Shown: positions 10,126 to 11,705 of the stretch, one piece after another | Layout: every line of letters starts with the position of its first letter | Position numbering within the stretch: the stretch's first letter is position 1 | NCBI GenBank assembly: GCA_002724555.1 | Contig: PBOZ01000039.1 | Location: 16,229 to 80,228, forward strand | Source of the DNA: Rickettsiales bacterium | GTDB lineage: Bacteria; Pseudomonadota; Alphaproteobacteria; UBA8366 | Length of the DNA stretch: 64,000 bases | Direction of reading: 5' to 3' | Translations under genes and position numbers: made by a program | The notes under the pieces: generated by a model | Database searches by the model: none | What the model saw: only the letters and a program-made list of their open reading frames with translations | What the model was told of the DNA's origin: nothing

Positions 10126-10986
10126 TCAATACGGAGCTTCCACACCCTCTTCGCTAATGCGCTTATTCTGCCATTCGGTCCCCTTGAAATAGACTTGTCG
10201 CTGCATCTCTTCAGCTTTTTGATGAAAAGCCACAGCCACTGGGTCAAGGTCGCATTGCGGGATCGGCTCGTGTTCAAAATTCCCATACTTGTCTTCACCT
10301 CGCACCATAGCCGCGCTGTCCCAGGAAGCCAAAACCTGGCGTGTTTCCGGTGGGATGTAACGCAAGACGACCCCGATCCGCCGATCGTCACTTAGGTTCG
10401 GGTACGACGCGTGTGCAATTGAGTAGTCAAAGAGCGCTGCTTCACCGGTTTTCAGTTCAATGTTCACCGCTTGGCTCTCATCGACATCCATAATCGTCTG
10501 TCCGCGCGTTAACATATTGTGCTCGGCACGTGTATCGACATGCGGCATCGGCGGCTTTAAATGACTACCCGGCAACATCCGCATGCATCCGCTCTCAATG
10601 GTTGCTGGCGACAGAGCTATCCAGACACTCACCAGGTCTTTTGTATCGAGGCCCCAATAATTGTTATCCTGGTGCCAGGAAACATAACTTGGGCTCTGCG
10701 GTTCTTTTATAAACCAGTGTGTTGTCCAGCAAAGAATATTCGGCCCAATCACATCCTCGACAGCATCGAGGATGTGGGGTGCGCGCACCAGGTCGGCAAG
10801 CCATTTGAACAGTAAGTGGGTTTTAAACCGATACGCCCCTCGCAGGGATCCACCATTCGCAGCCTCAAAATTCTCCAACTGGCAGCGGTAATCGGCTGCC
10901 TCGTCCGCCGTGACGCCGGGGATGGGGAAATGAAATCCAAACCGCTTCAAGTTTCCTATTGTTTCGTCATTCAACGCTTTCGGCAT
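10126..10986 (-). CDS. Phytanoyl-CoA dioxygenase (PhyH) family Fe(II)/2-oxoglutarate oxygenase
   Basis: SWHQDNNYWG (HxD iron ligands) and PhyH-like overall sequence. ATG 10986 has an AAGGAA RBS and lies 11 nt after the upstream stop. The track start at 11061 would overlap the upstream gene. Confidence 0.85.
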   Translation of the reverse strand: MPKALNDETIGNLKRFGFHFPIPGVTADEAADYRCQLENFEAANGGSLRGAYRFKTHLLFKWLADLVRAPHILDAVEDVIGPNILCWTTHWFIKEPQSPSYVSWHQDNNYWGLDTKDLVSVWIALSPATIESGCMRMLPGSHLKPPMPHVDTRAEHNMLTRGQTIMDVDESQAVNIELKTGEAALFDYSIAHASYPNLSDDRRIGVVLRYIPPETRQVLASWDSAAMVRGEDKYGNFEHEPIPQCDLDPVAVAFHQKAEEMQRQVYFKGTEWQNKRISEEGVEAPY

Positions 10987-10996
10987 CGGTTGTTCC

Positions 10997-11515
10997 TTAT
11001 TCCGCCGCGTCCTGTACCAACGTCCCGGTGAGACTTTCCATCGCGTGGCTTTCTGGCTCAATGCCGAACATATTGTTGAAGATGTTCATCCCATGCAACG
11101 TAGCAATGGTAAATCCGATCTCGACAAGCTGCGCGTCGTCAAAAAACTCCCTCATTTTTTCAAACAACGCGTCCGCATTATCGGTCTCATTCTGGGACAT
11201 TGCAGTAGCAAAACGCAAAACTGCCCGTTCTCGCGGTGTAAAAATTGAATGATCAGGATTTTGAACTTCAGCTAACTTCTCTTCTGTCATACCGGCATGC
11301 CGACCCGCGGCATAGCGATAGTTAAGTCAATATCGGCATTCGTTGATGGTTGCGCAGCGAATCCGTATAAGCTCTTTGATGCTGGCATCAACCCGATCAC
11401 TTAACCAGATACGCTCATAAAAGGTGTTTAACCCCTCAAGCAATTCTGGACAATTGCCCCGAACCCTTTGGCTGTTCGGCAGCTCTTCGGATCCAGAAAG
11501 TTTTACATGCGGCAT
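10997..11515 (-). CDS. Carboxymuconolactone decarboxylase/AhpD-like family protein with in-frame UGA at the CxxC position (candidate selenoprotein, CRYU)
   Basis: Track ORFs 11327-11581 and 10997-11290 share one frame. Reading through the TGA at 11327-11329 gives MPHVKLSGSEELP...IRCATINECRY[UGA]LNYRYAAGRHAGMTEEKLAEV... with no other stop. GGAGAGGG lies upstream of ATG 11515. A nonsense pseudogene is the alternative explanation. Confidence 0.6.
11290..11320 (-). promoter_or_regulatory. SECIS-like mRNA stem-loop immediately downstream of the in-frame UGA
   Basis: The mRNA reads UAUCGCUAUGCCG-CGGGU-CGGCAUGCCGGUA. It has 13 paired positions (perfect 6-bp upper stem, one C.C mismatch, two G.U pairs) and a 5-nt G-rich loop. 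It starts 6 nt after the UGA. Confidence 0.45.
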
Positions 11516-11705
11516 TCTTTGTAGCCCTCTCCAACTTGCAAACACACAAATAACCATATGCCATTTTCTTCGAATTCGCACCTTAGATATAGGGCGATTA
11601 AGCTGGACATCCCCTCTTTTTGGTCGTTAACCCTTCCTCACAAATTTAAAGCAGGAATTCTATGCAGAACATGATCGCTATTATTTACCTCAGAGTGACA
11701 CCCTG

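What the first reader, a model, noticed from the sequence alone, without database searches (positions are those of the whole stretch)
10997..11515. AhpD/CMD-family gene with an in-frame UGA exactly at the redox CxxC cysteine: candidate CxxU selenoprotein
The ORF track shows two short minus-strand ORFs at 11327-11581 and 10997-11290. They share one reading frame and are separated only by the TGA at 11327-11329 plus 12 sense codons. Read through, the product is a normal-length (172 codons) carboxymuconolactone-decarboxylase/AhpD-like protein: MPHVKLSGSEELP...IRCATINECRY[UGA]LNYRYAAGRHAGMTEEKLAEV.... In this family the active site is N-x-C-x-x-C followed by a G.T.EEL helix. Here the UGA replaces the second Cys, giving C-R-Y-U. 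There is no other lesion in either half. A good RBS (GGAGAGGG) precedes ATG 11515, and a strong hairpin follows the UGA (see the next finding). From memory, AhpD-like CxxU selenoproteins were reported in marine metagenome selenoproteome surveys. This would therefore be a mis-split gene rather than two genes. The competing explanation is a recent TGC/TGT-to-TGA nonsense mutation, which is plausible because this window holds other pseudogenes.
Basis: partly seen in the sequence, partly recalled or inferred. Interest (0 to 1): 0.8.

Follow-up and report, generated by a model that had tools for sequence, protein, structure and literature searches.

The report
Mis-split AhpD-like selenoprotein gene
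Two short "hypothetical" genes in this marine alphaproteobacterial genome are really one 172-codon redox enzyme gene whose internal UGA almost certainly encodes selenocysteine; this is a clean but unsurprising new clade of a selenoprotein type known since 2005.

Summary
The two minus-strand ORFs, 11327-11581 and 10997-11290, share one frame and are separated by a single TGA (11327-11329). Read through, they give a 172-residue CMD/AhpD-fold protein with the motif C60-R-Y-[UGA63].

This is not a nonsense mutation. All 16 distinct orthologues that I recovered (62-96% identical) carry TGA at exactly this codon. That includes 12 of 12 species-representative genomes found with an unbiased pattern. 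Their true terminators vary (TAA, TAG, TGA).

- **Selection:** purifying selection is equal on both sides of the UGA (pN/pS 0.24).
- **Hairpin:** a 12-bp hairpin follows the UGA. It has three compensatory base-pair changes and meets every published bacterial SECIS constraint.
- **Homologues:** the UGA aligns with the second Cys of CxxC in PA0269 and in the nearest Cys homologue.

AhpD-like and CMD-like CxxU selenoproteins are long established from the Sargasso Sea and GOS surveys. This clade is only about 23% identical to those. It scores below all NCBIfam selenoprotein cut-offs and is split into fragments in public annotation.

I could not test whether selABCD are present in the genome.

One modest new clue: 11 of the 16 loci have an Fe(II)/2-oxoglutarate dioxygenase directly adjacent on the same strand.

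The parts
10997..11515 (-). Complete selenoprotein gene: 172 sense codons including Sec63, plus the TAA stop. It encodes a CMD/AhpD-fold protein. NCBI annotates only the C-terminal 97 aa, as 'hypothetical protein CMP14_04010' (MBO88664.1).
   Evidence: The start Met is conserved in all orthologues.
11525..11532 (-). Shine-Dalgarno-like GGAGAGGG, 9 nt upstream of ATG 11515.
   Evidence: Read directly from the sequence. Function is inferred.
11336..11338 (-). Codon for Cys60 (TGC), the first residue of the C-x-x-U redox motif. It is invariant in the clade.
11327..11329 (-). In-frame UGA (codon 63), the predicted selenocysteine codon. In every orthologue it is followed by C (UGAC).
   Evidence: TGA is present in 16 of 16 distinct orthologues. 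It aligns with the second Cys of CxxC in PA0269 and in P0039.
11290..11320 (-). bSECIS-like hairpin inside the coding sequence. It has a 5-bp lower stem, a 1x1 mismatch, a 7-bp upper stem and the apical loop CGGGU (11307-11303). The loop begins 19 nt after the UGA.
   Evidence: -: 98.3% of cells are paired, three pairs have compensatory changes, 0 of 500 shuffles reach the observed value, and RNAalifold predicts the same structure.
- MFE is -13.0 kcal/mol in the window and -10.6 to -14.2 across all 16 sequences.
- the published bSECIS constraints.
- synonymous divergence is 0.36 here, against 0.75-0.77 in the rest of the gene.
10126..10986 (-). PhyH-family Fe(II)/2-oxoglutarate dioxygenase gene. 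Its ATG lies 10 nt after the selenoprotein's TAA, so the two are probably co-transcribed.
   Evidence: PF05721, 105.8 bits. The same adjacency is seen in orthologous loci.

Best explanation
Window 10997-11515(-) is a single gene for a 172-residue AhpD/CMD-fold thiol-selenol oxidoreductase. Codon 63 (UGA) is recoded to selenocysteine, giving the active site Cys60-x-x-Sec63.

**Inferred recoding mechanism.** The hairpin that starts 6 nt after the UGA presents its CGGGY loop 19 nt downstream. It acts as a bacterial SECIS that recruits SelB-GTP-Sec-tRNA(Sec) to the ribosome, so that UGA is read as Sec and not as stop. Gene callers, unaware of this, split the gene into a 62-84-aa piece and a 97-aa piece.

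**Inferred catalysis.** The selenolate of Sec63 attacks a peroxide or disulfide substrate, and Cys60 resolves the intermediate by forming a selenenylsulfide. This follows the chemistry of the AhpD CxxC family.

**Inferred physiological role.** The gene usually sits directly beside an oxygen-activating enzyme gene. The protein therefore probably supplies reducing or peroxide-scavenging capacity to that enzyme.

**Shown:**
- the conserved UGA;
- selection on both halves;
- the covarying hairpin that meets the bSECIS criteria;
- the Sec/Cys column correspondence;
- fold family membership.

**Inferred:** actual Sec insertion, the catalytic chemistry and the physiological partner.
For: 1. **Conserved UGA.** TGA sits at codon 63 in the window and in 15 other distinct orthologues of 62-96% identity. 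They come from Tara Oceans and sponge metagenomes and from Alpha- and Gammaproteobacteria MAGs with different neighbouring genes. Their true terminators vary (TAA, TAG, TGA).
2. **Unbiased sampling.** A scan of species-representative genomes returned 12 loci, all with TGA. The pattern that required Cys (YCLN[FY]RYA) gave no confirmed relative.
3. **Selection.** pN/pS is 0.24 upstream of the UGA, 0.26 in codons 64-75 and 0.24 downstream. Synonymous divergence drops from 0.75-0.77 to 0.36 in the hairpin codons.
4. **No consistent restart codon.** Codon 76, the supposed start of the downstream ORF, is ATT in L021 and GTG in L014.
5. **Hairpin.** 98.3% of cells are paired. Three pairs have compensatory double changes: A-U/U-A, U-A/C-G and C-G/U-A. 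None of 500 shuffles reaches the observed value, and slid registers pair at most 51%. RNAalifold finds the same structure on its own.
6. **bSECIS constraints.** All four published constraints are met in all 16 sequences.
7. **Sec/Cys correspondence.** The UGA column aligns with the second Cys of CxxC in PA0269 (PDB 2o4d/2ijc/7xw1, E 5e-14). It also aligns with TGC at residue 63 of the nearest Cys form, P0039, which lacks the hairpin in that register (6 of 12 pairs).
8. **Standard code.** TGA is a normal stop in this genome.
9. **Precedent.** AhpD-like and CMD-like CxxU selenoproteins are established and abundant in marine bacteria. The Sec column aligns with theirs.
Against: - **No Sec machinery seen.** No tRNA-Sec, selA, selB or selD was found in the 64-kb window, in 10 kb beyond its left end, or in about 350 kb of orthologous loci. 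This is uninformative for a genome of several Mb, but the key trans-acting requirement remains unverified.
- **Modest thermodynamic signal from one sequence.** The 76-nt segment has z = -0.16. The 31-nt hairpin has z = -2.0, with 36 of 1000 shuffles folding as well. The case rests on comparative evidence.
- **Loop detail.** The loop CGGGU does not fit the optional N1-N2 closing-pair detail of the consensus loop pattern.
- **One exception.** A more distant member, L031, keeps the TGA but has a degraded hairpin.
- **No experimental data** are available.
Confidence: 0.9

Rival explanations
1. Sec-independent read-through. The UGA is suppressed by a near-cognate tRNA that inserts Trp or Cys. The weak UGA-C context and the downstream hairpin would stimulate this, in organisms that lack the Sec machinery.
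For: - No Sec machinery could be shown in any genome carrying the gene.
- UGA is always followed by C. From general knowledge, this is a leaky termination context.
- Downstream structures can stimulate read-through.
Against: - The recoded position is exactly the catalytic Cys column of a CxxC redox motif. Sec occupies this column in the known AhpD-like and CMD-like selenoproteins.
- The hairpin meets the SelB-type bSECIS geometry and has an invariant GGG in its loop.
- If Cys were the intended residue, TGC or TGT would be expected to appear somewhere among 16 lineages whose synonymous sites are saturated. It never does.
Confidence: 0.05
2. A genuinely split protein. UGA terminates a 62-residue N-terminal peptide, and the 97-residue C-terminal part is translated separately by re-initiation at codon 76. 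The two pieces then assemble, and the hairpin serves translational coupling.
For: - Gene callers predict two ORFs in every locus.
- Most orthologues have ATG at codon 76.
- Both halves being under purifying selection is also compatible with a two-piece protein.
Against: - Codons 64-75 would be untranslated under this model. Yet they are conserved at the amino-acid level (L-N-[YF]-R-Y-A-A-G is invariant; pN/pS 0.26). They also align with the helix after CxxC in PA0269.
- Codon 76 is ATT in L021 and GTG in L014.
- No Shine-Dalgarno sequence precedes codon 76.
- The stop is always TGA and never TAA or TAG, whereas the true terminators vary.
- The split would remove the second catalytic residue of the motif.
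Confidence: 0.03
3. A pseudogene created by a recent TGC/TGT-to-TGA nonsense mutation, or a sequencing or assembly error.
For: A single sequence cannot separate this reading from recoding.
Against: - TGA is at the same codon in 16 distinct genes from independent assemblies and different taxa.
- Synonymous sites are saturated, yet pN/pS is 0.24 on both sides of the UGA.
- There are no other lesions.
- No close relative carries Cys at this column.
Confidence: 0.01
4. A reassigned genetic code in which UGA is a sense codon (Trp or Gly) throughout the genome.
For: Some reduced Alphaproteobacteria and candidate phyla reassign UGA (general knowledge).
Against: - TGA terminates 9 of 39 long ORFs in the window.
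- TGA terminates this very gene in L014 and L016.
- A scan found no other credible in-frame TGA in the window's genes.
Confidence: 0.005

Closest known systems
CMD domain-containing selenoprotein of the Sargasso Sea survey (e.g. AACY01102305), also called 'AhpD-like 2' (pfam02627, CxxU) in GOS and 'CMD-like protein, PF02627, CxxU' in the 2026 review
   Same: - The same Pfam domain, PF02627.
- The same C-x-x-U motif, with Sec in the homologous column.
- The alignment covers 163 residues at E 7e-17.
- A marine bacterial origin, with a SECIS hairpin directly after the UGA.
   Different: - Only 23% identical.
- This clade's signature peptides (RYAAG, LHGMN, FNNMFGIEPE) do not occur in the held supplementary sequence files of either survey.
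- The published protein has T-S-H after Sec. This clade has L-N-[YF]-R, with Arg in place of the family's His.
AhpD-like selenoprotein (COG2128/TIGR01926, CxxU), called 'AhpD-like 1' and the fourth most abundant selenoprotein family in GOS
   Same: - The AhpD-type fold and the CxxU motif, with Sec aligned.
- JGI labels this clade's fragments 'alkylhydroperoxidase family enzyme'.
- An abundant family in marine surface bacteria.
   Different: - 22% identity over 112 residues to AACY01589336.
- TIGR01926 scores 35.5 bits against a cut-off of 81.8.
- The published example keeps His at +4 (C-E-Y-U-I-R-A-H).
PA0269 of Pseudomonas aeruginosa (PDB 2o4d, 2ijc, 7xw1), an AhpD-like CMD-family protein with a solved structure
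   Same: - The best solved-structure match (E 5e-14, residues 43-155).
- INGCAYCVNMH aligns with INECRY[U]LNYR, and FTPRERAAL with FTPRERAVL.
   Different: - It has Cys, not Sec.
- It has His, not Arg, at +4.
- It lacks the conserved N-terminal region (residues 1-42) that carries the invariant Cys22.
Mycobacterium tuberculosis AhpD (alkylhydroperoxidase D, CxxC...H active site). This comparison is from general knowledge.
   Same: The TIGR00778 AhpD core domain is matched above its cut-off (31.8 bits against 27.8). The redox pair sits at the start of a helix.
   Different: - Very distant in sequence.
- Arg replaces the proton-relay His.
- No AhpC or lipoamide-system partner genes lie nearby. 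The neighbours here are dioxygenases.
E. coli fdhF-type bacterial SECIS and the consensus bSECIS model
   Same: A stem-loop inside the coding sequence immediately 3' of the UGA. It has a small apical loop with G followed by G in its first positions, 19 nt from UGA to loop (allowed range 16-37), and MFE at or below -7.5 kcal/mol.
   Different: - The sequence is unrelated.
- There is a 1x1 internal mismatch where fdhF has a bulged U (the fdhF detail is from memory).
- SelB binding has not been tested.

Membership tests
Bacterial selenoprotein gene (Sec-UGA with bSECIS) | An in-frame UGA conserved across orthologues, with coding conservation on both sides | tested here: met
   TGA at codon 63 in 16 of 16 distinct genes. 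pN/pS is 0.24 upstream and 0.24 downstream.
Bacterial selenoprotein gene (Sec-UGA with bSECIS) | The UGA column is occupied by Cys in homologues | tested here: met
   It aligns with the second Cys of CxxC in PA0269, TGC63 in P0039, and CxxC in P0048, P0073, P0075 and P0081.
Bacterial selenoprotein gene (Sec-UGA with bSECIS) | A stem-loop after the UGA that meets the consensus bSECIS model: a 3-9 nt loop, a 4-16 bp upper stem, G in the first two loop positions, 16-37 nt spacing, and MFE at or below -7.5 kcal/mol | tested here: met
   The criteria come from PMC13188914. All 16 sequences have a 5-nt loop CGGGY, a 7-bp upper stem, 19-nt spacing and MFE of -10.6 to -14.2. Covariation supports the structure.
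Bacterial selenoprotein gene (Sec-UGA with bSECIS) | The genome encodes tRNA-Sec (selC), SelA, SelB and SelD | not testable with these tools
   - None was found in the window, in 10 kb beyond its left end, or in the related loci.
- The rest of these MAGs cannot be fetched.
- A SelA search listed only the top 120 of 8000 hits, all from Enterobacteriaceae.
Bacterial selenoprotein gene (Sec-UGA with bSECIS) | Selenium is demonstrably incorporated at the UGA position | not testable with these tools
   This needs 75Se labelling or mass spectrometry.
CMD / AhpD-like fold (Pfam PF02627; TIGR00778 AhpD core) | Profile score above the curated cut-off | tested here: met
   PF02627 scores 50.7 bits against 23. 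TIGR00778 scores 31.8 against 27.8. PDB relatives are all CMD/AhpD-like proteins.
CMD / AhpD-like fold (Pfam PF02627; TIGR00778 AhpD core) | A CxxC redox pair followed by His at +4 (CxxCxxxH) | tested here: not met
   The pair is present as C60-x-x-U63, but position +4 is an invariant Arg67. The nearest Cys form, P0039, also has Arg there.
AhpD-like selenoprotein, TIGR01926 / COG2128 (Sargasso and GOS 'AhpD-like 1') | TIGR01926 score above its cut-off, or close similarity to published members | tested here: not met
   TIGR01926 scores 35.5 bits against 81.8. Identity to AACY01589336 is 22%.
CMD-like selenoprotein, PF02627 with CxxU (Sargasso 'CMD domain-containing', GOS 'AhpD-like 2') | A PF02627 domain with Sec as the second residue of the CxxC motif | tested here: met
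   At the level of an orthologous group it is distinct: 23% identity, and its signature peptides are absent from the surveys' held supplements.
NCBIfam curated AhpD-type (seleno)protein models (NF053654, NF041047, NF041238, NF041537) | Score above the model's curated cut-off | tested here: not met
   Scores against cut-offs are 67 vs 310, 33.6 vs 110, 29.7 vs 175 and 21.8 vs 510. This explains why annotation pipelines do not rescue the gene.

The most novel reading that the evidence does not exclude
This Sec-containing AhpD-like clade is not a general peroxide scavenger. It would be a dedicated selenol redox partner of the oxygen-activating enzyme encoded directly beside it: a PhyH or TauD Fe(II)/2-oxoglutarate dioxygenase, or in some lineages a flavin monooxygenase. 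It might re-reduce the iron centre after uncoupled turnover, or remove a (hydro)peroxide by-product or intermediate. That would make a two-gene selenoprotein-dioxygenase module that has not been described.
Probability: 0.25. Interest if true: 0.55.

Novelty: new member of a known kind. Interest (0 to 1): 0.3.

Why it matters
**Annotation.** This clade is split into two "hypothetical proteins" in NCBI, JGI and ENA records. In the window's own record the C-terminal fragment is MBO88664.1. No curated NCBIfam selenoprotein model reaches it. A clade-specific model would repair the annotation in many marine and sponge-associated Alpha- and Gammaproteobacteria MAGs.

**Wider mis-splitting.** Roughly a third of the top hits in the exhaustive protein search are fragments of about 100 aa that begin just after the Sec column. 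I verified only two of them. Mis-splitting of AhpD-like selenoproteins is probably widespread in protein catalogues.

**Biology.** The finding adds a well-supported member to one of the most abundant marine selenoprotein types. It also gives a testable functional clue in the tight linkage to Fe(II)/2-oxoglutarate dioxygenases. It does not change current understanding of Sec decoding.

Tried and rejected
1. **Structure prediction.** Fold assignment therefore rests on Pfam and PDB sequence matches.
2. **Locating Sec machinery through the protein database.** I searched with E. coli SelA. The plan was to recognise the GCA_012103455.1 genome by its 4,699,109-bp contig length. Only the top 120 of 8000 hits are listed, all from Enterobacteriaceae. 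I abandoned this and did not spend the last search on it.
3. **Extending the window contig.** The right-end protein is not on record. The left end gave 10 kb more with no sel genes.
4. **tRNA-Sec.** ARAGORN and Rfam found only tRNA-Gln in the window and in 22 loci.
5. **A second selenoprotein gene in the window.** I scanned for in-frame TGA with a redox-motif context and a bSECIS-like hairpin. Only the AhpD-like gene is credible. The other ten hits are off-frame noise.
6. **Single-sequence folding of 76 nt.** This gave no significant z-score. The signal comes from the 31-nt hairpin and from covariation.
7. **Membership of NCBIfam selenoprotein families.** Considered and rejected on score.
8. 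**Code reassignment and pseudogene readings.** Rejected.
9. **Searching the survey supplements for this clade's signature peptides.** Absent from the Sargasso and GOS files as held.

Full report
**Observation**

- On the minus strand, the ORFs 11327-11581 and 10997-11290 are in one frame.
- They are separated by a single TGA (11329-11327). Twelve sense codons follow before the ATG at 11290.
- From ATG 11515 to TAA 10999-10997 the read-through product has 172 residues and no other lesion. ATG 11515 is preceded by GGAGAGGG at 11532-11525.
- With Cys substituted at the UGA, the protein matches Pfam CMD (PF02627) at 50.7 bits against a cut-off of 23. It matches the TIGR00778 AhpD core at 31.8 bits against 27.8.
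- The local sequence is I-N-E-C60-R-Y-[UGA63]-L-N-Y-R-Y-A-A-G-R-H-A-G-M-T-E-E-K-L.
- TGA terminates 9 of 39 long ORFs in the window, so the genetic code is standard.

**Is the UGA a lesion or a conserved feature?**

A search of 5.8 billion proteins with the joined sequence returned 23 relatives of 60-96% identity. Every one is a protein of about 97 aa that covers only the C-terminal 56% of the query.

I fetched DNA for seven of these lineages. In each, a 62-63-aa ORF ends exactly 36 nt upstream of the 97-aa ORF, even though the neighbouring genes differ. Translation shows the same architecture everywhere: C-x-Y-stop-L-N-[YF]-R-Y-A-A-G. The stop is TGA in all of them, while the genes' true terminators vary among TAA, TAG and TGA.

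I then scanned one genome per species (GTDB representatives) with a Cys-substituted alignment, so that the search was not biased toward TGA. It gave 12 loci, all recovered through the C-terminal pattern TLHGMN[ILQ]F. All 12 have TGA at codon 63. The pattern that required Cys gave no confirmed relative.

In total there are 16 distinct genes and no exception. In the exhaustive search of 1.84 billion representatives, the clade collapses into one 50%-identity cluster. The next relatives are at most 40% identical.

**Selection**

| Region | pN/pS | Synonymous divergence (pS) |
|---|---|---|
| Codons 2-62 (upstream of the UGA) | 0.24 | 0.75 (saturated) |
| Codons 64-75 (hairpin region) | 0.26 | 0.36 |
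| Codons 76-160 | 0.24 | 0.77 (saturated) |

- Both halves, and the stretch that would be "intergenic" under a two-gene reading, evolve as coding sequence.
- The 12 codons after the UGA carry an extra constraint at the nucleotide level.
- Codon 76, the supposed start of the downstream ORF, is ATT in L021 and GTG in L014. It therefore cannot be a conserved initiation site.

**The RNA element**

A hairpin follows the UGA at window 11320-11290. It has a 5-bp lower stem, a 1x1 mismatch, a 7-bp upper stem and the loop CGGGU.

On the 16-sequence alignment:
- 98.3% of cells form standard pairs.
- Three pairs show changes on both sides that keep the pairing: A-U/U-A, U-A/C-G and C-G/U-A. These involve 12 cells.
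- None of 500 column shuffles reaches the observed pairing or covariation score.
- Sliding the 3' partners by 1-3 columns drops pairing to 27-51%.
- RNAalifold predicts the identical structure without guidance.

Several of the compensatory changes couple an amino-acid change on one arm to a synonymous change on the other. One example is Tyr66/Phe66 paired with Gly75 GGU/GGA. Protein conservation alone would not produce that pattern.

The published consensus bSECIS model requires four things (PMC13188914):
- a 3-9 nt apical loop and a 4-16 bp upper stem;
- G in one of the first two loop positions;
- 16-37 nt between the UGA and the loop;
- MFE at or below -7.5 kcal/mol.

All 16 sequences comply. 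Each has a 5-nt loop CGGGY, a 7-bp upper stem and 19-nt spacing, with MFE of -10.6 to -14.2 kcal/mol.

The thermodynamic signal from the window sequence alone is modest. The hairpin has z = -2.0, and the 76-nt context is not significant. The evidence is comparative.

**Sec/Cys correspondence**
- The best solved-structure relative is the AhpD-like protein PA0269 (2o4d, 2ijc, 7xw1; E 5e-14). Its INGCAYCVNMH aligns with INECRY[U]LNYR, which places the UGA on the second Cys of CxxC.
- The nearest full-length Cys homologue, P0039, reads NQCPSCLAVRF, with TGC at residue 63.
- In the register of the hairpin, P0039 keeps only 6 of 12 pairs. This is a single case, but it fits a structure tied to the UGA and not to the peptide.
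- The family's usual His at +4 (CxxCxxxH) is an invariant Arg in this clade and in P0039.

**What is known**
- AhpD-like CxxU selenoproteins were reported from the Sargasso Sea in 2005: 27 "AhpD-like" sequences (COG2128) and 4 "CMD domain-containing" sequences (PMC1088965).
- In GOS, "AhpD-like 1" was the fourth most abundant selenoprotein family, with 299 sequences. "AhpD-like 2" (pfam02627, CxxU) had 70 (PMC2398784).
- A 2026 review lists both, together with several NCBIfam AhpD-type selenoprotein models (PMC13188914).
- The window protein aligns with the published CMD-type sequence AACY01102305 at 23% identity (E 7e-17). It aligns with the AhpD-like sequence AACY01589336 at 22% identity (E 2e-8). 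Sec is on Sec in both alignments.
- It scores below the curated cut-offs of TIGR01926 and of every NCBIfam selenoprotein model.
- Its signature peptides do not occur in the held supplementary sequence files of either survey.

It is therefore a separate, uncurated clade of a well-known kind of selenoprotein. A further clade (L032, 39% identity) also has C-T-H-TGA with a strong hairpin. Recurrence of Sec at this column across the superfamily fits the literature.

**Source and annotation**
- The window comes from an uncultured Tara Oceans MAG labelled "Rickettsiales bacterium" (locus-tag prefix CMP14_, 112,437-bp contig).
- NCBI lists the C-terminal fragment as hypothetical protein MBO88664.1.
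- Window gene content points to an alphaproteobacterium: ATP synthase b and b', a CcrM-like methylase and DciA.
- The closest species representative is a "Rhodospirillaceae bacterium" MAG at 90% identity.

**Sec machinery**

This is the one requirement I could not test.
- No tRNA-Sec or sel genes occur in the window, in 10 kb beyond its left end, or in the related loci.
- The rest of these genomes cannot be reached with the tools.
- An attempt through a SelA search failed because only the top 120 hits are listed.
- No second selenoprotein candidate exists in the window.

**Function**

Of the 16 distinct loci:
- 11 have an Fe(II)/2-oxoglutarate dioxygenase directly adjacent on the same strand:
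  - PhyH 10 nt or less downstream, or slightly overlapping, in the window, L001, L017, L019, L020 and L021;
  - TauD 8 nt downstream in L022 and L023;
  - PhyH about 69 nt upstream in L011, L024 and L028.
- 2 have a flavin monooxygenase downstream (L007, L015).
- The other 3 (L014, L016, L027) have no recognised oxygenase directly adjacent.

The wider neighbourhoods are catabolic islands rich in oxidases and oxygenases. I infer a CxxU thiol-selenol oxidoreductase that serves these oxygen-activating enzymes, by scavenging peroxide or by supplying reducing equivalents. This inference is not demonstrated. No paper in the searchable library links this pairing to selenocysteine.

**Verdict**

- Pseudogene, sequencing error and code reassignment are refuted.
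- A split two-piece protein and Sec-independent read-through remain as low-probability rivals until the Sec machinery or the protein itself is examined.
- Novelty is modest: a new, systematically mis-annotated clade of a selenoprotein type known since 2005, with one new contextual clue.

Noticed in passing
window 10126-10986(-); also L001, L017, L019-L024, L028, L011 next to the orthologous gene: An Fe(II)/2-oxoglutarate dioxygenase (PhyH or TauD) lies directly adjacent on the same strand in 11 of 16 distinct loci, often only 8-10 nt away. A FAD monooxygenase takes that place in 2 more. This suggests a conserved selenoprotein-oxygenase gene pair.
   Followed up: partly
L031:2812-3318: A 55%-identical relative keeps the TGA at the CxxU column (C-H-Y-TGA-ATG). 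Its SECIS-like hairpin is degraded (MFE -6.3; 5 of 7 upper and 3 of 5 lower pairs). It may be a decaying copy or may use a different SECIS. It is known from a single Logan contig.
   Followed up: partly
L032:2390-2890: A separate AhpD-like clade (39% identity, MAG GCA_016190545.1) has L-N-D-C-T-H-TGA. A strong 8-bp hairpin with loop GGC follows. It too is annotated as two ORFs.
   Followed up: partly
one search hit list (protein representatives): Roughly a third of the top 150 hits are proteins of about 85-125 aa whose first residues align just after the Sec column. This suggests many AhpD-like selenoproteins are stored as C-terminal fragments in public protein catalogues. Only two were verified at the DNA level.
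   Followed up: partly
window 11315-11317(-) (codon 67), and codons 22 and 54: The AhpD-family His of CxxCxxxH is an invariant Arg67 in this clade and in its nearest Cys homologue. Two further cysteines, Cys22 and Cys54, are invariant within the clade. Cys22 is shared with P0039 and Cys54 is not. Their role is unknown.
   Followed up: no
window 11326(-), and all orthologues: The base after the UGA is always C, because Leu64 is always encoded CUN and never UUR. That gives UGA-C, which from general knowledge is a weak termination context.
   Followed up: no
window 1-24000, and L033: The gene sits in a catabolic island dense in oxygen-dependent enzymes. These include a Rieske oxygenase, a GMC oxidoreductase, an FMN-dependent alpha-hydroxy-acid oxidase-type enzyme, TauD, luciferase-like monooxygenases, an Old Yellow Enzyme-type reductase, a glyoxalase/dioxygenase and a GST.
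   Followed up: partly
whole window: NCBI labels the source MAG 'Rickettsiales bacterium', while the closest species representatives are labelled Rhodospirillaceae. At about 50% GC and with rich catabolic gene content, the window looks unlike classical Rickettsiales, so the taxonomic label is probably loose.
   Followed up: no
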